A stretch of DNA of 64,000 nt from assembly GCF_009914755.1 (NCBI RefSeq), contig NC_060939.1; one strand, written 5' to 3'. The first letter of the stretch is position 1. Each line of letters starts with the position of its first letter. The notes under the pieces are model-generated. The model was not told the origin of the DNA. It searched no databases and saw only the letters and a program-made list of their open reading frames with translations. Origin of the DNA: the human T2T-CHM13v2.0 reference genome, Homo sapiens. Below, piece by piece: positions 955-62,759 of the stretch. Made by a program: the position numbers and the translations under genes.

Positions 955-1671
<717 letters not shown>

Positions 1672-2970: not shown

Positions 2971-2980
2971 AATACTTTTC

Positions 2981-3309
<329 letters not shown>

Positions 3310-4379
3310 TCACCATATAATTTTTGTGTCTACTGGTGATTTTTGCCTGGCAATATCTTTTTAACAAACTCTTTTCCTCCTATATCAGCCCAAATTAGTA
3401 CCTGTTGCTTGCAGCTAAGAACTCTGATTTAGTGAGCTGTCTCCTGGGAATAAGAAACAGCCTGCAACTAGAAGATCTGAGCGCTAGTATGGGTTCATTA
3501 ACTGGCTGTGAGACCCTGAGCAGGTGCTTGACCCTCAGTGTGCTGCTGGCAGAACCAGTCACAATACACTTTCCTGGATTTAGTAAACTTTTCACTTCTG
3601 CTCACTTTGTTCCTTGCCTCTTCTTTTTCTCTGCTCCATTCTTTTGTCCATGGAATAGTAGGACAATGGGTAAAGGGGAAAAGGAACAAGATGGGCAAAG
3701 GGCTGAAGAGTTCTACCACACTTCACACAACGTTGCCCCAGATCAGTCTAAGAAATCCAATCATTTCAGCTCTCAGGTGCCGACTCCTTCATGGAATTCA
3801 GAGACTAATGCAACGGGAGCCTATTCTTTGGGGAACTCGTGGCTTGGTGGAGTATAATGTATGCAGGTTTTGTTGGATGCTTGCATGTGGACTTCTCATT
3901 TCCAATTCCAGCCTGTCTTCTTTTCTGCATTGTGAGCTCCTTTAGGGAAATGAAGCCCTTCCACATAGTGGAAACATTTAATGGCTGTCAAATGGATGAC
4001 AAATAAATACCAACTCATATATAAATATAATTACCCCTAAATTTATATCTCTCTTGACCTATATGTGTGTGTATATGTATACGTGTATATATCTATGTAT
4101 GATGATGCTTCAATGAAGTAGTAACGCATGTATTATAATCTCTGTGTAGCAGATAAAGAAACTGTGACACCAAGTGGTCAACTCGGTTGGCCAAGTTTCT
4201 AGTTAATCAATGGCAGAGGTAGAAGCAATTTTCCAATTTCTGGATCATTTCTCTGCATTTTAACTAAGTTCTGCAAAAAACCAGCATTGGCTTAAAGAAG
4301 AATACACCAGGCGTGGCCCACACAGACCTTAGTTAGCATCTTCACTCAGACCACTGCGGGCATGAAGCATTTCTTACTC

Positions 4380-4800
4380 TACAGCCAGCCGCTTACCTCT
4401 GAGCCATCACCTCACAGCTGGGCCAATAAACAGCAGAGCGTCCAGGCCTCAGGCCTCACCCAGCTAGGTGTGGGTGACCCTGCAGGTCTTGCGCCTGATT
4501 GCCAATTCCCGTAGATGCCCTTGGTTTTTAGTGTAATTGATGTGTCATAGGCTTCATCCTGTGATTTGTTACAGCCTCATTGATTAACGGGGGTTTGGCA
4601 GAGCCCAGTGTTTTTCTGCTGCTTTCTCTGGCAGGAGTGTTTGTTCAGCAAACAAGAAGGAAGCAGGTAGGGATGAAAGTACAGAGACTGTCTTCCCTTG
4701 TATCTCTTCCCCTCCGGGCATCACTGAATCAGCCAGGGTTGGATTAACCTAATGAGGTTTGGTGATGTGGGTTCCATCACGACCGGTTCCTTTAGTGCCC
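4380..4800. promoter_or_regulatory. Candidate developmental enhancer (non-repeat, motif-dense)
   Basis: Unique sequence with CCAAT, TGCCAA, TAATTG, TGATTAAC and GGATTA (K50 homeodomain) motifs. Conservation not verified. Confidence 0.4.
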
Positions 4801-5219
4801 CAGGGGAGCTGTCGTGCCCCTTTTAGCTTTATAAGGAACTAGAGGCTTAAAAGAATTTATGAAAAGTTGTGGGTATAGAAGACCTACCTGGGTTTCCTAG
4901 AAAAAACAAAACACAATAAAATATAATGCAGCCTGTTGACAAAATGAATCAATGGCAACCGAAGTCAGAATAGTTTATCTCTGGGGGTGGGTACTGACAG
5001 GGAAGAAGGCATAGAAATGGGCCTTCCATGATGGAAACATTGCATATCATGAGCTGGGTGGTAGTTATCTCTGTATGTGCATATTTATATAGATGTAAGA
5101 TTAAGATTTAGACACTTTACTCCGCGTATATTATGATCTTATTAAGTTTCTTATTCTTAAAATACAGCCTGTTGTAATGGCAGGAACACCATGTTCAGGG
5201 CCACCTTCTTATTGTTCAC

Positions 5220-5450
5220 ATTTTAGTTCTCGTCACTTCTTCAGTGAGGCCTTTACTGACCGTGGCTAGAGTAGCCCACCCTCCCCTCTGCACTCTATCC
5301 AATTATCTGAGTTGTTTTCTTCATTGCACTTATCATCATCTGAAAACGGCGTATTTACTGACGTATTTATTGGCTATCTCTCACCACTAGCATGTAGATT
5401 CTGTGACGGCAGAGTTTCTGATGGCCTTATTTCCTGTGGGATCCCCAGCA
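5220..5450 (+). mobile_element. L2 LINE 3' remnant
   Basis: GTCACTTCTTCAGTGAGGCCTT...TTTTCTTCATTGCACTTATCA...CTCTCACCACTAGCATGT resembles the L2 3' end. Confidence 0.6.
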
Positions 5451-5796
5451 GGAGACACGTGCTGATTTTCTGACTGACTGCGGCGGAGACACGTGAGCTG
5501 GTGTGAGGACTCAGTTATGGGACAAGTGTTACCAAAATGAGATCACGAGATCATAGGACGCTCATGGTCAGGACTTAGGACTGTGGTCAAAGACAAGAGT
5601 GAGAGTGAAGCAGGCCAAAGTCCAACATACTGGCCAGCAAACCAAGTGGAGGTCACAGTTAGGCACGAGTGGTCACCAGGCCAGCTGTGAGGGCAGCTCA
5701 GACCTGCCAGGCCAACGCTGCCCTCTCCAGCCAAGGCACGGCCCTGCTGGCAGGTCAGCTTAGAGGTCTGAGCCTGCCTCCTGAGGTAAGAACAGA

Positions 5797-6020
5797 CCAG
5801 TGGTTCTCAACCAGGAGCAATTTTACTTTCCAGAGGATAGCTGACAATATCTGAAGACATTTTTAGTTATCACAACTGGGGGAGGAGGCTACTGGCATTT
5901 ACTGATGAGAGGCCAGGGATGCTGCTAGACATCCTACAATGCACTGTACAGTCCCCAACCCTCCATAGACAAGAATCAGCAAGGCCAAAATATCAGTAGT
6001 GCCCAGGGTAAGAAACCTTG
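5797..6020. mobile_element. MER20 (hAT-Charlie) DNA transposon
   Basis: CAGTGGTTCTCAACC...TCACAACTGGGG...GAGGCCAGGGATGCTGCTA...AGAAACCTTG. Confidence 0.85.
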
Positions 6021-6033
6021 GACTCGAGGGTAG

Positions 6034-6607
<574 letters not shown>

Positions 6608-6789
6608 GGACATGGATTTTCTGAGAAAAAGAATTTCTACCCACAAGCCAGTTTTTATGGCTATCCCTTTCTTCACAAAGGCTGATCAATATTTAAATCT
6701 ATTTTATAGTGGCATTCTGGAATTTAAAACCTAAACCTGGTTTGAGTTTCCCTCACTGGATGAACTCCTAACTCCTGGCAGCTCTGTCT

Positions 6790-7600
6790 GACAACCAGTC
6801 ATTCTTGGGCTCCAGGCCAATTTCTTTAACGAATCTCTCTAATTTAATCCATATTTTCCCGCCTCTCTATTAAGTGCCACCCAGGCTCATTGAACCTAAT
6901 ATTTGAACCAAACATATTTAATGACTGTCCTTTCGTTAAACATTACAAGCTCTTTAAGACCTTGGCAGACGGGTGCCCCCTTGGATAACCTAGAGCCCCA
7001 GCAAAGTCAATAGTCAGGGCCAAGTTAATCCCTCTGCTCCCTTCCTCCCCGCTGGGCCTGGAGCCTTGTGGGTGAGACAGCCTTTATCACTGGGGAAGCA
7101 TACGTTTTCCAGGCCAATGGATTCAGTGCTTCGGCTGTATCTCATGCCTTGACACTAGATGTCAGCGAAGGGTAATTGTTGTCTCAATTTAGAGGCCAGC
7201 TTAGGTAGCTGCTGGCACCCTTGGTTCATGTTTTATAGCAAAGGTGAAGTATGGCTCCGTTCCCGTTGCACACATATATTACAATAAAAGGGGGTATCGG
7301 CGCCTAGTGTTTTTAAAGGCTAGTCATAAAAGATGAATAACGAGGCAGTTTAAAGCTAAAAGACAGCTGCCAAGTTCAATGGCCATGATGGATGCCAAAT
7401 ACCCAGTGTAGAGAAAACCCGTTCCTCTGACACCACCATCCAAAAAATTAATTACCACAATTCAGCATCTTTAAATGTGCCACTTAATATACTGCTACCA
7501 TAATTAAATTTCCAGCCCTGTGACCTTGAAACCATTTCCTGAGATAATAAATGAGATCAAGGTTTAATCGATGCAGATGCAAGTAGAAACTGTCCAAGGA
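6790..7600. promoter_or_regulatory. Candidate conserved non-coding enhancer with CTCF-like site
   Basis: TAATCC (6845, 7026), TAAGTG/CACTTA, TGATGGAT (7386), GTCATAAAA (7323), TGACCTTGA (7521), TAATTA, ATCGAT; CTCF-like GACACTAGATGTCAGCG at 7151. Confidence 0.5.
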
Positions 7601-11178: not shown

Positions 11179-11595
<417 letters not shown>

Positions 11596-11669
11596 AGAAA
11601 AAATACCCTCACCTCCAAGAAGACCAGATTTTTATCTTTTTATTTAAGTATTCACAGACTTATTTCCTT

Positions 11670-11950
11670 TTTATTTTTATTTTTTATTGTTTGAGATGGA
11701 GTCTCACTATGTTGCCCAGGCTGGAGTGCAGTGGCACGATCATGGCTCACTGCAGCCTCAACTTCCCGGGCTCAGGTGATCTTTCCACCTGAGCCTCCTG
11801 AGTAGCTAGTACTACAGGCATGCACCACCATGCCCTGCTAAATTTTGTATTTTTAGTAGAGACAGGGTTTCACTATGTTGCCCAGGCTGGTCTTGAACTC
11901 ATGGCCTACCAAAGTGCTGTGATTATAGGAGTGAGCCACCATGCCTGGCC
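11670..11950 (-). mobile_element. Alu SINE (AluJ-like)
   Basis: GATCATGGCTCACTGCAGCCTC, typical of AluJ; left arm has an internal deletion. Confidence 0.9.
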
Positions 11951-50516: not shown

Positions 50517-52105
50517 GATGCTAAATTCTTAACAAAATACTAGCTAACTGAATCCAACAACATATCAAAAAGATAACCCATCATGACCAACTGGGTTTCA
50601 TACAAGGGATGTAGGGATGTTTTCACATACACAAGTCAATAAATGTGATACACCACATAAACAGAATTAAAAACAAAAATCACATGATTATCTCAATACA
50701 TGCAGAAAAAGCATTTGACAAAATCCAGCATCCCTTTATGATTAAAACTCTCAACAAAATCGGCATGCAAAGGACAGACCTTAATGTAATAAAAGCCACC
50801 TATGACAAACCCACAGCCAACATAATACTGAATGGGGAAAATTTGAACGTATTCCCTCTGAGAACTAGAATAATACAAGGATGCCCACTGTCACCACTCC
50901 TCTTCAACATAGTACCAGAAGTTCTAAAAAGAGCAATCAGACAAGAGAAAGAAATAAAGGGCATCCAAATCAGTAAAGAGGAAGTCAAACTGTCACTGCT
51001 TGCTGACAATATGATCGTTTACCTTGAAAACCCTAAGGACCCCTCCAGATAAAAGAGAAACTCTACTGATAAAAGAATTCAGCAAGGTTTCCAGATACAA
51101 GATTAACGTACACAAATCAATAGCTCTTCTATACACCAGCAGGGACCAAGCAGAGAATCAAATCAGGAACTCAACCGCTTTTACAATAGCTGTGAAAAAA
51201 AAAAAAATCATATACTTAGGAATATACCTAACCAAGGAGTTGAAAGACCTCTATACGGAGAACTACAAAACACTGCTGAAAGAAATCATAGATAACACAA
51301 ACAAACGGAAGCACATTCTATGCTCATGCATGGGTAGAATCAACGTTATGAAAATGACCATACTGCCAAAAGCAATCTACAGATTCAATGCAATCCCCAT
51401 CAAAATACCACATCATTCTTCACAAACAATTCTAAAATTCATATGGAACCAAAAAAGAACCTGCATAGCCAAAGCAAAAATAAAAATTCTAGAGGCATCA
51501 CACTACCTGATTTTAAACTATAGTATACGGCCATAGTCACCAAAAAAGCATGGTACTGGTATAAAAATAAGCACATAGACCAATGGAACAGAATAGAGAA
51601 CCCAGAAATAAACCCCAATACTTACAGCCAACTGATCTTTGACAAAGCAAACAAAAACATAAAGTGGGGAAAGGACACCCTTTTCAACAAATGGTGCTGG
51701 GATAATTGGCCAGCCACATGGAGGAGAATGAAACTGGATCCTCATCTCTCACCTTATACAAAAATCAACTCAAGATGGATTAAGGACGTAAACCTAAGAC
51801 CTGAACTATAAAAATTCTAGAAGATAACATTGGAAAAACCCTTTTACACATTGGCTTAGGCAAGGATTTCATGACCAAGAACTCAAAAGCAAATCCAATA
51901 AAAACAAAGATAAACAGCTGGGACCTAATTAAACTAAAGAGCTTTTGGATGGCAAAAGGAACAGTCAGCAGAGTAAGCAGACAACCCACAGAGTGAGAGA
52001 AAATCTTCACAATCTATGCATCTGACAAAGGACTAATATCCAGAATCTACAATGAACTCAAACATATCATTAAGAAAAAAACAAACAATCCCATCAAAAA
52101 GTGGG
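50517..52105 (+). mobile_element. Inverted L1PB-type ORF2 segment (RT domain), disrupted
   Basis: Begins at DAK-ILNKILAN. Peptides [42 protein letters not shown]; ends at NNPIKKW. Confidence 0.92.
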
Positions 52106-53015
52106 ATTACCAGGCTGGATAGTGAAGGACCATCAGGTGGGGGCAGGGCTAGGCATGTCTGAACTCAGACTCTCCTTGGGTGGGTCTTGCTGTGGCTGTT
52201 GTGGGGGATGGGGGTGAGATTCCCAGGTCACTGGAGTTGTATACCTAGGAGGATTATGGCTGCCTCTGCTGAGTTATGCAGGTTGTCAGGGAAGTGGGGG
52301 AAAGCTGGGAGTCACAGGCCTCATCCAGCTCCCATGCAAACCAAAGGGCTGGTCTCACTCCCATCATGCCCCAGCCAACAGCACTGGGCTTGAAAACTTG
52401 CCCTGGGCTATCTGCCTCCCAGGTGTGAAAGCAAAGGACTTGGTTCTTCCCTGGCCTGTGGAGTCTGCACACCGGATTTGCGCACTCCCTCATTCTGGCC
52501 AGGAGGCTTCTCGCTCCATTCAAATTGTTACAAAGTTCAGCTGGAGATTTCCTTCTCCCTGTAGAGTTTTACCCCCTGCTCCTCTGGTCATCCTCCCAAT
52601 GGATCCCTGTGGTGCCAAGCAGCACTGGCCTGTTATGAGACGCAGCGAGCTCCCAGGGCCTTTCTGCTGCTTCCTCTACCCCTGTATTTTTCTCAGCTCT
52701 CTAAATTGACTCAGCTTCACATAAAGTCAGAAACTTCTCCCACAAACAGACCTTCAGCTTCCCCAGTGGGGGTGTGTGTTGAGGAGAGGCGGGTTTCCCT
52801 TTCCCACTTTCGCAGTTGGGGCACTCACAGTATTTGGGGTGTCTCCTGGGTCCTGCAGGAGCAGTCTGCTTCCTTCAGAGGTTCTGTGGGTCCTCTCGGG
52901 AATTGCTGGTTTGTTCTTGCAGTCGATCTCGAGCTAAAATTCACAATGCGAGCTTCTGCGAGCTGCTCTCTCCGGAGCTGCAGTCTAGTCCTGCTTCCCA
53001 TCCGCCATGATGATC
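52106..53015 (-). mobile_element. L1PB (L1PBa-type) 5' UTR
   Basis: Minus strand reads ATCATGGCGGATGGGAAGCAGGACTAGACTGCAGCTCC...GAGAGGACCCACAGA, matching the recalled L1PB 5' end. Confidence 0.8.
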
Positions 53016-59289: not shown

Positions 59290-59960
59290 CAAGCAAACTG
59301 TTTTAGGCATTTGCAGGAAAATTATTCAGGCAGCTGTTGTCTTATTGGCGGTTTGGGTTCTGATTGATGACAGACAACATAATACATAATCTATTTACTA
59401 ACTCCTAACACCTAAATAATGCCCTTATTTTTCACCATTACTGAATTGCCAATACCATATTGACAAAGTGTCATAGAGTTGTAGCTAAACTGACCTCTTG
59501 TCACCATTTTTCTTTCTATAGAATCCGTGAAGACCCCAGAAAAAAAACCCTTTTACTCTGATTAATGGAAGGTACTAAAGGTTACCATTGAACTTGGTTG
59601 TATTTGTTTATTTACACTTAATTCACTGGTAAGGGGCAGATGGATGGAATTCACTTGGTAATGAAAAACACACTAATTTTTTTCTTCTCTCCCACACAGG
59701 CTACATAAATGATTGCTTTGCCAATGTAGGGTGCTTACTAGTGCAGACAACTTCTAATTCCCATTCCAAATGGCTGGAGTGGAATTTGTGCAGCACAGAA
59801 ATAGAATCTTCCCAGGGCTGAGCACAAGTATTTTGCCCCATAAATATTTGTTGATTTGGCTTGGAAACCATAGACCCTGCAAAGTAGATGGTGACAGGGA
59901 ATAATCTTCCATAATTTGGAAGAAAGCAAACATTAATAATCTGTCTTCCCGTGCCTTCCA
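59290..59960. promoter_or_regulatory. Candidate non-coding regulatory element with PBX-HOX/MEIS composite
   Basis: TGATTGATGACAG at 59361-59373, plus TGATTAAT, TGTTTATTT and ATTTGCAG in unique sequence. Confidence 0.4.
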
Positions 59961-60049
59961 AAACAACTGTTTAAAACCAGTTAAAACAAAAAAATCCCTA
60001 GTCTAGGTTTACGCAGTGGCCAGGGGATCTTCTGACCTTTGCCTCTATA

Positions 60050-60470
60050 GCAACTACTTTAGTTCTGGTCCTATCATTTCTGACACCTCTGAAGTCGTCC
60101 TCCTGTCTGTAACATAATCCTTCTCTGGATTCTGCAATCAGAGAGTCTTTCCAAAACTCAGCTCTGACCATGTCCTCCTCTTACTGAACAACTCTCATGG
60201 CCCCAGTAATTTACAAGCAAAGTCCAAACTTCTTAGCCTTTTAAAATGCTGTCTGCCATTGCCTTGTGCACTGTGCCCTCCTTTTTCCTCTTGACAGACT
60301 CTTTGTCTTTTCAAACTAACCTCAGATGTCATGTTCTTAGCGAAGCCTTCCCTGTCTCCCCCGGCGTGAGTTACACATTGCTTTCTTTGTATTTCCCATG
60401 CCTGGGTATCTGACTTCACCTTAGTGCTCATCACACCAGGTTGTAACCACTCAAATGTCTAATTCTTTCC
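60050..60470 (+). mobile_element. L2 LINE remnant
   Basis: GAGAGTCTTTCCAAAACTCAGCTCTGACCATGTC...AAAGTCCAAACTTCTTAGCC...GAAGCCTTCCCTG. Confidence 0.6.
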
Positions 60471-60604
60471 ATAACCACAGACTAACTTCCTCCTTGAAAC
60501 CCCAGAACTCACACTAATCCGGCTCCAGAGTCCAATGTATTTTGGGACCTGATTTGGTTCTGTCTTATTTCTGTAATTGTTTTAGATCTTCAAAGTCTTG
60601 TCTC

Positions 60605-60883
60605 CTTAATCAGTGATAAGAAATGTAATTGGGCTAGTTTGATTAGTGATTATTCCTATAGTGCTTCAAAGAGTTTGTCATTCTTATGGATTGTTTTTCT
60701 GCAGCAATGCAATCTGCAAAAAGATGTGTATTTCTAGGGAGGACACTGTGATGAATAAATATGAATTTGCTGTAAATTTCTCCATCATATTTTTAATCTA
60801 GCAAGTTCTTGGGCTCAGTATAATCACTTATTAAGAGTCTGAAACTGAATAAACTTGAAGGTGAGTAGAAATCTAACTTTAAA

Positions 60884-60919
<36 letters not shown>

Positions 60920-61136
60920 GAGAGAGGGAGACAGAGAGAGAGAAAGAGAGACAGAGGGAGAGAGAGAAAGTTCGTATTTATTCATCAGTGTCCAGTGTCC
61001 TCTCTAGAAATACACATCTTTTTGCAGATTGCATTGCTGCAGAAAAACAATTCATAAGAATGACAAACTCTTTGAAGCACTATAGGAATAATCACTAGTC
61101 AAACTAGCCCAATTACATTTCTTACTACTGATTAAG
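60605..61136. repeat. Long inverted repeat: arms 60605-60768 and 60968-61136, 199-bp spacer
   Basis: Manual alignment gives 157/164 identical positions plus one 5-nt indel. The spacer holds (TG)n(GA)n. Confidence 0.97.
60884..60967 (+). repeat. (TG)n(GA)n microsatellite
   Basis: Directly visible, inside the inverted-repeat spacer. Confidence 0.95.
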
Positions 61137-61746
61137 ATTAATCTGGACCTGCAAAAATTTGGTTGCTGGGGTGGGATTTTATAGTTGTATCACTATAAAT
61201 TTATACCTGCCATATAAAAATTGTCAATGTATATAATTAACTGCCAAAATATTCCCTGGGGTTAACTGTCAATTGAATTAACTAAGCAATACAGTTAAGT
61301 TTTAATTAGCCATTTTGGAGCCTGTAGAATTAGGTGCGCATAGCTGGGTGATAGTTTTATATTTAAAAAACCTCTTCTCAACTTTTAGTTTCACATGAAA
61401 TCCTAAATACATAGATATATATTTCCCAATGGAATCTTCCTTCTTTCCTTTCCCCTTCTTTCTCTTCCTTCCTTCCTTCTTGTAGTTTTGTTTGATTTTT
61501 CTTTGAACAGGAAAAAGTGAACACTTTTTAGAAAGGAACATTTCTGAGGGAGAGATATCCCACTATTCCAAAGCCTGGAATTTGAATATTATTACTAAAA
61601 TGTTTATTGGAGAAAATCTGTCTGCCATCTGTGAGTGGAGTTCTTTTACTTATCTTAAAAACAATCTTATTCAAATAGTTAAGAGTTCATAAATTTATAA
61701 AAGCAATTGGTCATGGTTGTTACATAGTATCTAACTCAAAAATGCT

Positions 61747-62055
<309 letters not shown>

Positions 62056-62759
62056 AAAAATGTTCTTTGTACATCTTTTGAAATCTTTGACCACAGCTAA
62101 TCTATCACAACTGTCTCATGTCTTCCCCAACACACACATGCACACACACACACATATGCACTCTGACTGCACTAATAAATCAATAAAATACCACCCACCT
62201 GGCTATGCCTAAGCTACATTTAGAAGTGATAGAAATTTTAATTATTTTATTGCATAGCATCTGGCCACCAAGCATCAGAATAAATTATGGAAGGGGCAGT
62301 TTATTTCAAAAGAATGAAGCTATTCTGACATTTTAACTGATGGTTATTTGATGTACTCTCGAATAGTAATTGACTTGATCCCAAGCCACTGGTCATCTGA
62401 ATACTGAATAAGTTGAAAATAAGACATGTAATATCTCATTCTAAAATCCTCTTTGGGTTTAGTTACCTGTCTTGAATAAATACATTGATCAAATAAACTA
62501 AAAGATGAATATACCTCCTCTTTGTACTGTGGAGCCAACCTGAGAATTTTTAAAAGATTATTTCAAGTATTTGAAAAAATTGATATCTTTCTCTGCTTTT
62601 ATCTTATTAAAAAAAGAAATCAGGATTAATGTGTTTTTATCAGGAAAGTTCTGTGACTTGGCAGCTTCTTAGGTATAGGATTTGCTTTTGTATGGGTCCA
62701 CAACCCACCAAGGGGACATTATCCCTCCCTGAATTTCAGGCAACAATTGAAGACTCCAG

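What the first reader, a model, noticed from the sequence alone, without database searches (positions are those of the whole stretch)
60605..61136. Long non-repeat inverted repeat predicted to form a ~165-bp RNA stem with strand-biased G-U pairs
Arms 60605-60768 and 60968-61136 are reverse complements at 157/164 positions with one 5-nt bulge and a 199-nt loop. I do not recognise them as a transposon. All seven substitutions are transitions, and six give G-U wobble pairs on the + strand (they would be A-C on the minus strand), so a + transcript is almost fully paired. The chance of at least 6 of 7 is 8/128, so this is suggestive only. Such a hairpin could be an endo-siRNA/miRNA precursor, an ADAR or PKR/MDA5 substrate, or a splicing switch; as DNA it could be unstable or invert the spacer. 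It may also be a neutral fold-back duplication next to the microsatellite.
Basis: partly seen in the sequence, partly recalled or inferred. Interest (0 to 1): 0.8.

Follow-up and report, generated by a model that had tools for sequence, protein, structure and literature searches.

The report
Single-locus inverted duplication in human chr15
A real, roughly 170-base inverted duplication of unique intergenic human DNA sits beside a GT/GA microsatellite; it looks like an old replication or repair accident, and nothing seen here shows that it works as an RNA hairpin gene.

Summary
The inverted repeat is real and lies at the stated coordinates. The arms are 60605-60771 (+) and 60965-61136 (reverse complement). 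159 of 167 aligned positions match and there is one 5-nt indel. The 193-nt spacer is 111 nt of unique sequence plus (GT)9.5(GA)33.

It is not a detectable transposon. In the 3.1-Gb assembly the arm matches only its own two arms, and the flanks and spacer are unique. Three masked repeats used as controls gave 4,331-6,866 candidates each. Rfam has no match in the arms.

Both strands fold into a very long stem. For the arms alone the energies are -266.8 kcal/mol (+) and -248.0 kcal/mol (-).

The G:U bias is not significant: p = 0.0625 for a named strand and 0.125 for either strand.

Best reading: a neutral, locus-specific fold-back or template-switch inverted duplication, tens of millions of years old by arm divergence (about 5%). 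A function as dsRNA, siRNA or miRNA is unsupported, but it could not be tested here because no expression or orthologue data were available. Interest is low to moderate.

The parts
60605..60771 (+). Left arm of the inverted repeat (167 nt, 67% A+T)
   Evidence: 159/167 positions identical to the reverse complement of the right arm; only two places in the genome.
60772..60883 (.). Unique part of the spacer
   Evidence: 60772-60882 matches only itself in the genome; no residual inverted similarity to the other half of the spacer beyond a 6-nt TTTCTC.
60884..60967 (+). Compound microsatellite: (GT)9.5 at 60884-60902, then an imperfect (GA)33 at 60902-60967. It abuts and just overlaps the inner end of the right arm.
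   Evidence: TRF: GT 100% matches, GA 81% matches, direct-repeat family D1.
60965..61136 (-). Right arm of the inverted repeat (172 nt), the reverse complement of the left arm
   Evidence: second and last genomic match of the left arm, 92% identity counting the gap.
60986..61000 (+). Tandem CAGTGTC x 2.1 inside the right arm.
   Evidence: period 7, 100% matches; gap position.
60606..60611 (+). TTAATC, repeated directly at 61138-61143 just outside the right arm. It may be junction microhomology or a footprint, or chance. TTAA and TA also lie inside both arm ends.
   Evidence: the longest direct repeat found across 18 x 21 boundary offsets. By my own estimate, about 0.1 such 6-mers are expected by chance.
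61138..61143 (+). Second copy of the TTAATC direct repeat

Best explanation
This is a locus-specific inverted duplication of about 170 bp of unique intergenic DNA. It is not a mobile element and, as far as can be shown here, not a gene.

The most likely origin (inferred, not shown) is a single replication or repair error. A nascent or resected 3' end, probably stalled or broken at or near the (GT)n(GA)n tract, switched template or folded back. It then copied the neighbouring sequence in reverse-complement orientation for about 170 nt before rejoining the original template. This left two arms around a spacer. It is the same class of event as template-switch mutations and fold-back inversions, but longer than the short-range events catalogued in apes.

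Since then the arms have drifted apart neutrally: 8 substitutions and one 5-nt slippage duplication, about 5% divergence. That implies an age of tens of millions of years, roughly 10-50 Myr given the Poisson error and the range of published primate rates (rates recalled, not taken from a call).

With a 193-nt spacer the DNA is expected to be stable. If the locus is ever transcribed, either strand would form a dsRNA stem of about 160 bp, but that is a by-product and not a demonstrated function.
For: Shown:
- The arm occurs at exactly two places in the 3.1-Gb assembly, namely the two arms. BLAST-type search at E<=10 gave 2 candidates and 2 matches. A 35-mer pattern with up to 3 mismatches gave 1 forward and 1 reverse match and 0 for the reversed control.
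- The left flank 59600-60604 and the unique spacer each match only themselves. The right flank matches elsewhere only through a CTTC-rich low-complexity tract.
- The same search run on three masked repeats of the window gave 6,866, 4,331 and 4,575 first-look candidates, with scored hits mostly at 73-94% identity and one short piece at 64%. So the search does see repeat families.
- No Rfam family matches within the arms at E<=10, apart from a 1.9-E snoZ178 chance hit that runs from the microsatellite into the inner 39 bases of the right arm. No miRNA family matches.
- The inverted similarity stops sharply at both outer ends. The outer-flank local score is 12, against a shuffle mean of 12.2.
- The inner end of the right arm abuts the microsatellite.
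- The differences between the arms are ordinary: 7 transitions (one at a CpG, 60974), 1 transversion and 1 slippage indel.
- The G:U excess is not significant: 0.0625 for a named strand, 0.125 for either strand.
- The window shows no strand compositional skew that would suggest germline transcription: GC skew -0.004, AT skew +0.034.

From papers (passages read):
- Template switching creates new hairpins from unique sequence in primates, more than 6,000 of them, in events of 28 to 83 bases (PMC10710096).
- In great apes the copied segment has a median of 12 nt and a maximum of 128 nt among 1,503 gold-standard events (PMC7954356).
- Inverted Alus with a 52-bp spacer no longer stall eukaryotic forks (PMC7999016).
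Against: - No outgroup sequence was available. The single-event origin, the polarity (which arm is the copy) and the age are therefore all inferred.
- At 167-172 nt the copied tract is longer than the longest short-range template switch in the ape catalogue (128 nt). The event would be an outlier of that class or a different repair route.
- No clear microhomology was found at either switch point. There is only TTTCTC/GAGAAA near the inner junction and an offset TTAATC direct repeat at the outer one.
- If transversions are counted as a third class, 6 of 8 substitutions preserving + strand pairing has p about 0.02 for a named strand and 0.04 for either strand. That is nominally suggestive of RNA-level constraint, though it is post hoc and rests on 8 events.
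- The genome search uses a first-look filter and may miss a very old, low-copy family at about 70% identity or less. All three positive controls were high-copy families.
Confidence: 0.7

Rival explanations
1. A functional long-hairpin RNA locus read from the + strand. It would be an endo-siRNA or miRNA-like precursor, or an ADAR1/MDA5/PKR-relevant dsRNA, with selection having allowed only changes that keep pairing (G:U).
For: Six of 7 transitions are G:U on the + strand, and there is only one transversion, at the frayed inner end. Counting three classes of substitution, p is about 0.02-0.04. With arms only, the + strand forms 163 pairs at -266.8 kcal/mol and the - strand 156 pairs at -248.0 kcal/mol. 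The stem is far tighter than the other 24 inverted pairs listed for the window. It is also tighter than all 4 pairs found in 200 kb of random genome.
Against: The plain test gives 0.0625 (one strand) or 0.125 (either strand), and this finding was picked from many. No Rfam family matches in the arms, and the hub's table lists no gene or functional element there. The arm has no other homologous site in the genome, so there is no extended-complementarity target of the kind hpRNA loci have. The abstract of PMC12553114 (seen in the listing) says vertebrates lack long miRNA hairpins. Long, nearly perfect dsRNAs are selected against in transcripts, and most such human structures are unexpressed (PMC7006430, passages). 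A 5-nt bulge and an A:C mismatch were tolerated. The nearest annotated transcript is on the - strand.
Confidence: 0.07
2. A relic of a palindromic non-autonomous DNA transposon (MITE), for example a TTAA-inserting piggyBac-like or TA-inserting Tc1/mariner-like element with long terminal inverted repeats.
For: The overall shape is long terminal inverted repeats around a short core. TTAA (60606-60609 and 61132-61135) and TA sit at the very ends of the arms, where a palindromic target-site duplication would be hidden inside the repeat. The arm then begins ...CAGTG. That this resembles some hAT/pogo ends is my recollection, not a test.
Against: There is no family: the genome holds 2 matches, both the arms themselves, while real repeats gave thousands of candidates. 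Human DNA transposons are old (established knowledge, recalled), so independent decay would leave arms much less than 95% alike. No 8-bp hAT-type duplication is present. The only direct repeat, TTAATC, is offset and at chance level.
Confidence: 0.1
3. An older inverted duplication or palindrome whose arms are kept alike by intrachromosomal gene conversion or repeated template switching. Its centre would have been remodelled by microsatellite growth, making it much older than the 5% divergence suggests.
For: Mismatches are denser at the two ends of the arms (60615/16; 60762/66/69) than in the middle, where runs of 45 and 48 identical bases occur. The (GA)n tract starts exactly where arm similarity ends and could have grown out of the copied TTTCTC/GAGAAA motif. 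Template switching is reported to homogenise inverted-repeat arms (abstract of PMC8604942, seen in the listing).
Against: With 8 events, the clustering at the ends is not statistically distinguishable from chance; I did not test it formally. Arms of about 170 bp are near or below the length usually thought necessary for efficient mammalian gene conversion (recalled). No outgroup data were available.
Confidence: 0.1
4. An assembly or sequencing artefact (a fold-back chimera).
For: None specific. Fold-back chimeras do occur in long-read libraries (recalled).
Against: The arms differ at 8 positions plus an indel and are separated by 193 nt that include unique sequence. An artefactual fold-back would be a perfect, spacer-free palindrome. 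The hub text names the assembly as a finished telomere-to-telomere assembly.
Confidence: 0.01

Closest known systems
Template-switch mutations (TSMs) that create hairpins de novo in primate genomes (PMC8794818, title and abstract start only, in the listing; PMC10710096, passages; PMC7954356, passages)
   Same: An inverted copy of adjacent unique sequence is created in one step at a single locus. No mobile element is involved, and the result is an instant, near-perfect hairpin.
   Different: Scale. Catalogued ape events copy a median of 12 nt and at most 128 nt. The miRNA-forming cases cited are 28-83 nt, with stems of 30-55 bases. Here about 170 nt were copied, with a 193-nt spacer. The ancestral state could not be reconstructed, so membership is untested.
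Fold-back inversions / inverted duplications from hairpin-capped breaks or leading-lagging strand switching (ODIRA; abstract start of PMC10766183 in the listing; review PMC7999016, passages)
   Same: Head-to-head duplication around a short spacer, thought to start at replication obstacles or short inverted repeats.
   Different: Those events are usually kilobases to megabases long and are tied to amplification or terminal deletion. This one is 0.5 kb, interstitial and fixed.
Palindromic MITEs that give miRNA hairpins (for example MADE1/miR-548 and MER53-type elements; recalled, not tested by name)
   Same: Inverted arms around a short core, with TA or TTAA at the ends.
   Different: Those are families with many copies. 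This sequence exists once.
Inverted Alu pairs, the main human ADAR/MDA5 dsRNA source
   Same: Would form long intramolecular dsRNA if transcribed.
   Different: The arms are not Alu. The Rfam SRP/Alu-type hits lie at 61778-62054, outside the arms. Pairing is about 95%. That compares with 70-88% for the other 24 inverted pairs listed for the window and 85-92% in the random sample.
hpRNA loci of Drosophila (PMC10317233, abstract start in the listing) and hairpin endo-siRNA loci of mouse oocytes (recalled)
   Same: Long inverted repeat of hundreds of bases at a single locus.
   Different: hpRNAs are inverted copies of a target gene found elsewhere. Here no other homologous site exists in the genome, and no small-RNA evidence is available.
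PATRRs (palindromic AT-rich repeats; PMC7999016, passages)
   Same: Non-transposon, locus-specific, A+T-rich inverted repeat of a few hundred bases.
   Different: PATRRs are near spacer-free, more than 90% A+T and break-prone. This repeat is 67% A+T with a 193-nt spacer, so it is expected to be stable.

Membership tests
MITE / non-autonomous DNA transposon | Many dispersed copies of the same element in the genome | tested here: not met
   only the two arms match. Controls gave 4,331-6,866 candidates.
MITE / non-autonomous DNA transposon | Terminal inverted repeats | tested here: met
   Trivially met, since any inverted duplication meets it.
MITE / non-autonomous DNA transposon | Target-site duplication of the superfamily's length flanking the ends | tested here: inconclusive
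   TTAA/TA lie inside the arm ends and cannot be told apart from arm sequence. There is no 8-bp direct repeat. The offset 6-bp TTAATC is at chance level.
Known miRNA or other RNA family (Rfam 15) | Match to a curated covariance model | tested here: not met
   no miRNA hit in the arms at E<=10. The only hits touching the repeat are chance-level: snoZ178 (E 1.9), which spans the microsatellite and the inner 39 bases of the right arm, and MIR399 (E 1.2), which lies outside the arms.
Canonical animal miRNA precursor | Stem of about 35 bp with a short apical loop (PMC10710096, passage) | tested here: not met
   the stem is about 160 bp and the loop 193 nt.
Template-switch mutation hairpin | Ancestral sequence lacks the inverted copy, and the descendant is explained by one four-point switch | not testable with these tools
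   No primate or mammal orthologues are held; the answer to says the genome 'has no relatives here'.
Template-switch mutation hairpin | Copied segment within the described size range (median 12 nt, maximum 128 nt in apes) | tested here: not met
   The arms are 167-172 nt, against the range given in PMC7954356.
hpRNA / hairpin endo-siRNA locus | Arms homologous to a target gene elsewhere | tested here: not met
   no other match in the genome at E<=10.
hpRNA / hairpin endo-siRNA locus | Dicer-sized small RNAs mapping to both arms | not testable with these tools
   No expression data available.
Inverted Alu pair | Both arms are Alu elements | tested here: not met
   the SRP/Alu-type hits lie only at 61778-62054; the arms are single-locus sequence.

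The most novel reading that the evidence does not exclude
A primate-restricted long-hairpin RNA gene born by one large template switch and since kept paired on the + strand by selection, with only G:U-preserving transitions tolerated. It would be a rare non-repeat source of roughly 160-bp endogenous dsRNA, serving as a Dicer or ADAR1/MDA5 substrate in germline or brain.
Probability: 0.05. Interest if true: 0.7.

Novelty: new member of a known kind. Interest (0 to 1): 0.2.

Why it matters
As it stands this is a tidy example of how unique DNA can acquire a very long hairpin in one mutational step. The copied tract is longer than any in the ape template-switch catalogue I read (maximum 128 nt). 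It is therefore useful as a boundary case between short-range template switching and larger fold-back rearrangements. It also lies beside a GT/GA tract that could plausibly have stalled the fork.

It would matter more if the + strand were transcribed. A non-repeat stem of about 160 bp at 95% pairing is the kind of structure reported to be purged from human transcripts (PMC7006430), and it would be a candidate ADAR1/MDA5 ligand. I found no evidence for that.

Tried and rejected

2. A more sensitive search of the genome for old, diverged copies was not possible. A sequence-only covariance model was built but was not accepted for this genome. A very old, low-copy family therefore cannot be fully excluded.

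3. I wanted a genome-wide background frequency of comparable non-repeat inverted repeats. In the 200 kb there were 4 inverted pairs of at least 80 nt, at least 85% identity and a spacer of at most 2 kb. Three are 278-293 nt at 85-87% identity (Alu-sized). One is 119 nt at 91.6%. None is at least 150 nt and at least 92%. The sample is too small for a rate: the upper 95% bound is about 15 per Mb.
   - The 119-nt arm returned no match even to itself. I read this as the tool skipping very common words, which would make it a high-copy repeat, but that is an inference.

4. Outward or inward extension of the repeat: none was found.

5. Local strand skew as a sign of transcription or as a neutral cause of the G:U bias: no skew was found.

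6. Rejected as an artefact, because the arms differ and the spacer is unique.

7. No search was made for this locus by name or coordinate in the literature. I cannot say whether it is described in print, and supplements of the template-switch papers were not opened.

Full report
WHAT IS THERE

Reading the sequence, the repeat finder and two independent alignments agree. Window 60605-60771 on the + strand is the reverse complement of 60965-61136. 159 of 167 aligned positions are identical, and the right arm carries five extra bases (60988-60992).

Six are G:T or T:G on the + strand: 60615:61126, 60643:61098, 60689:61052, 60738:61003, 60762:60974 and 60766:60970. One is A:C (60616:61125).

Three details are new:
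- The pairing runs three positions further inward and there picks up a transversion (60769 G : 60967 A).
- Mismatches 60615 and 60616 are adjacent (GA against AG) and may be one event.
- The 'bulge' is a perfect tandem CAGTGTC x 2.1 at 60986-61000, that is, a slippage duplication.

The 193-nt spacer has two parts. The first is 111 nt of unique sequence. The second is a compound microsatellite, (GT)9.5 at 60884-60902 and an imperfect (GA)33 at 60902-60967, which runs right up to the inner end of the right arm.

IS IT MORE THAN CHANCE?

Yes, by a wide margin. The 552-nt region folds as RNA at -300 kcal/mol on the + strand (z = -25.6) and at -264.4 kcal/mol on the - strand (z = -29.4). As DNA it folds at -175.1 kcal/mol (z = -29.0). 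In each case none of 100 shuffles came close.

Among the 43 inverted pairs of at least 40 nt within 3 kb in the window, 25 were listed. The other 24 are 70-88% complementary.

In 200 kb of randomly placed sequence from the same genome the same BLAST scan found four pairs. Three are Alu-sized at 85-87% identity, and one is 119 nt at 91.6%. None is both at least 150 nt and at least 92%.

IS IT A TRANSPOSON OR ANY OTHER REPEAT?

The window's own 3.1-Gb assembly can be searched. Results for the locus:
- The left arm finds two places at E<=10, itself and the right arm, and the first look raised only those two candidates.
- A 35-base core with up to three mismatches gives one forward and one reverse match. 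The reversed control pattern gives none.
- The 1-kb left flank and the unique part of the spacer match only themselves.
- The right flank matches elsewhere only through a CTTC-rich low-complexity tract at about 61436-61506.

As positive controls, three stretches that NCBI masks as repeats gave 6,866, 4,331 and 4,575 first-look candidates, with scored hits mostly at 73-94% identity and one short piece at 64%. So the search sees repeat families. All three controls are high-copy, however, and attempts at a more sensitive profile search were not accepted. A very old, low-copy family therefore cannot be strictly excluded.

Such a relic would in any case not be expected to keep arms 95% alike.

At the ends, TTAA and TA sit inside both arm termini. 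Being palindromic, they cannot be told apart from arm sequence. There is no 8-bp direct repeat. The only flanking direct repeat is an offset TTAATC (60606-60611 and 61138-61143), which is at chance level given the 378 offsets scanned.

The defining feature of a MITE, a dispersed family, is tested and not met.

IS IT A KNOWN RNA?

Rfam 15 at E<=10 over 59500-62500 gives no miRNA hit in the arms. The Alu/SRP-type and Alu-derived miRNA-family hits lie at 61778-62056, in the neighbouring Alu. The only hits touching the repeat are chance-level: E 1.2 (MIR399, outside the arms) and E 1.9 (snoZ178, spanning the microsatellite and the inner 39 bases of the right arm). The hub's RefSeq table lists no gene or functional element at the locus.

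THE STRAND-BIASED G:U PAIRS

Each transition in a stem gives a wobble pair on exactly one strand, so the null probability is one half.
- Six or more of seven has probability 0.0625 for a named strand and 0.125 if either strand would have been reported.
- Dropping the adjacent doublet gives 5 of 5, or 0.031 and 0.0625.
- If transversions are treated as a third class, 6 of 8 substitutions keeping + strand pairing has p about 0.02 for a named strand and 0.04 for either strand.

That last figure is nominally suggestive. But it was computed after the fact, on eight events, for one finding chosen from many.

One of the six is a CpG transition (right arm TCG at 60974 against left arm TG), which is ordinary deamination. 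The window shows no strand skew that would point to transcription (GC skew -0.004, AT skew +0.034).

Energetically the effect is modest. With arms only, the + strand forms 163 pairs (6 G:U) at -266.8 kcal/mol. The - strand forms 156 pairs at -248.0 kcal/mol. Either strand would be a long dsRNA.

HOW IT MOST LIKELY AROSE (INFERENCE)

The repeat has four notable properties:
- It is made of unique sequence.
- Its outer boundaries are sharp (outer-flank score 12 against a shuffle mean of 12.2).
- It sits at a single locus.
- Its inner boundary abuts a GT/GA tract.

This is what a one-step inverted duplication leaves behind. In such an event a 3' end stalled or broken near the microsatellite switches to the complementary or nascent strand. 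It copies about 170 nt backwards and then rejoins.

Template switching of this kind is documented to create thousands of hairpins from unstructured primate sequence (PMC10710096, passages). However, catalogued ape events copy a median of 12 nt and at most 128 nt (PMC7954356, passages). This one would therefore be an outlier of that class or a small fold-back repair event. I found no convincing microhomology at the junctions, and I cannot say which arm is the copy.

Arm divergence is 8/167, or 0.0495 after Jukes-Cantor correction. The Poisson 95% interval is 2.1-9.4%. With per-lineage primate rates of 0.5-1 x 10^-9 per site per year (recalled, not from a call), this gives tens of millions of years. 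That assumes no gene conversion between the arms.

With a 193-nt spacer the DNA should be stable. Inverted Alus with a 52-bp spacer already fail to stall eukaryotic forks (PMC7999016, passages).

FUNCTION

None of the functional readings could be tested directly, because no expression, small-RNA, editing or orthologue data are reachable with these tools. The indirect evidence leans against them:
- There is no annotated transcript on the + strand.
- There is no second homologous site that hairpin siRNAs could target, unlike hpRNA loci.
- Vertebrates are reported to lack long miRNA hairpins (abstract of PMC12553114, listing).
- Long, nearly perfect dsRNAs are reported to be purged from transcripts and mostly unexpressed in human (PMC7006430, passages).

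I put the functional + strand hairpin at about 5-7%.

VERDICT

The structure is real, unusual in its tightness and not a detectable transposon. The best explanation is a neutral, old, locus-specific inverted duplication, with confidence about 0.7. It is a new member of a known kind and of low to moderate interest. The decisive test is the orthologous sequence in other primates, plus stranded RNA data.

Noticed in passing
window 61737-62060 (- strand): An Alu element. It gives partial Metazoa_SRP hits at 61778-61924 and 61944-62054, plus sub-threshold hits to Alu-derived miRNA families (mir-3135, mir-1268, mir-1285), all below gathering score.
   Followed up: no
window 51720-52108: A roughly 385-bp repeat. 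The 39 other scored genomic copies are all near full length (query positions 1-6 to 385-386) and 92-94% identical, out of 4,575 first-look candidates. This looks like a fairly young, uniform family such as a solo LTR; the family name was not determined.
   Followed up: partly
window 61435-61506: A CTTC/TTCC-rich low-complexity tract (TRF periods 4, 14, 15, 19). It is the only part of the right flank with matches elsewhere in the genome.
   Followed up: partly
window 1304-1633 / 2973-3303, 11306-11493 / 11659-11846 and other pairs: Many Alu-sized inverted pairs at 70-88% complementarity. One has only a 165-nt spacer (11306-11493 / 11659-11846, 75%). These are the ordinary background of inverted repeats in this window.
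   Followed up: no
L031:8663-8781 (random sample, G000:C19): The own-genome DNA search returned no match at all for this 119-nt arm of an inverted pair, not even its own location. Presumably every word in it is too common to be indexed. The caveat is that 'no match' from this tool can mean 'too repetitive'.
   Followed up: no
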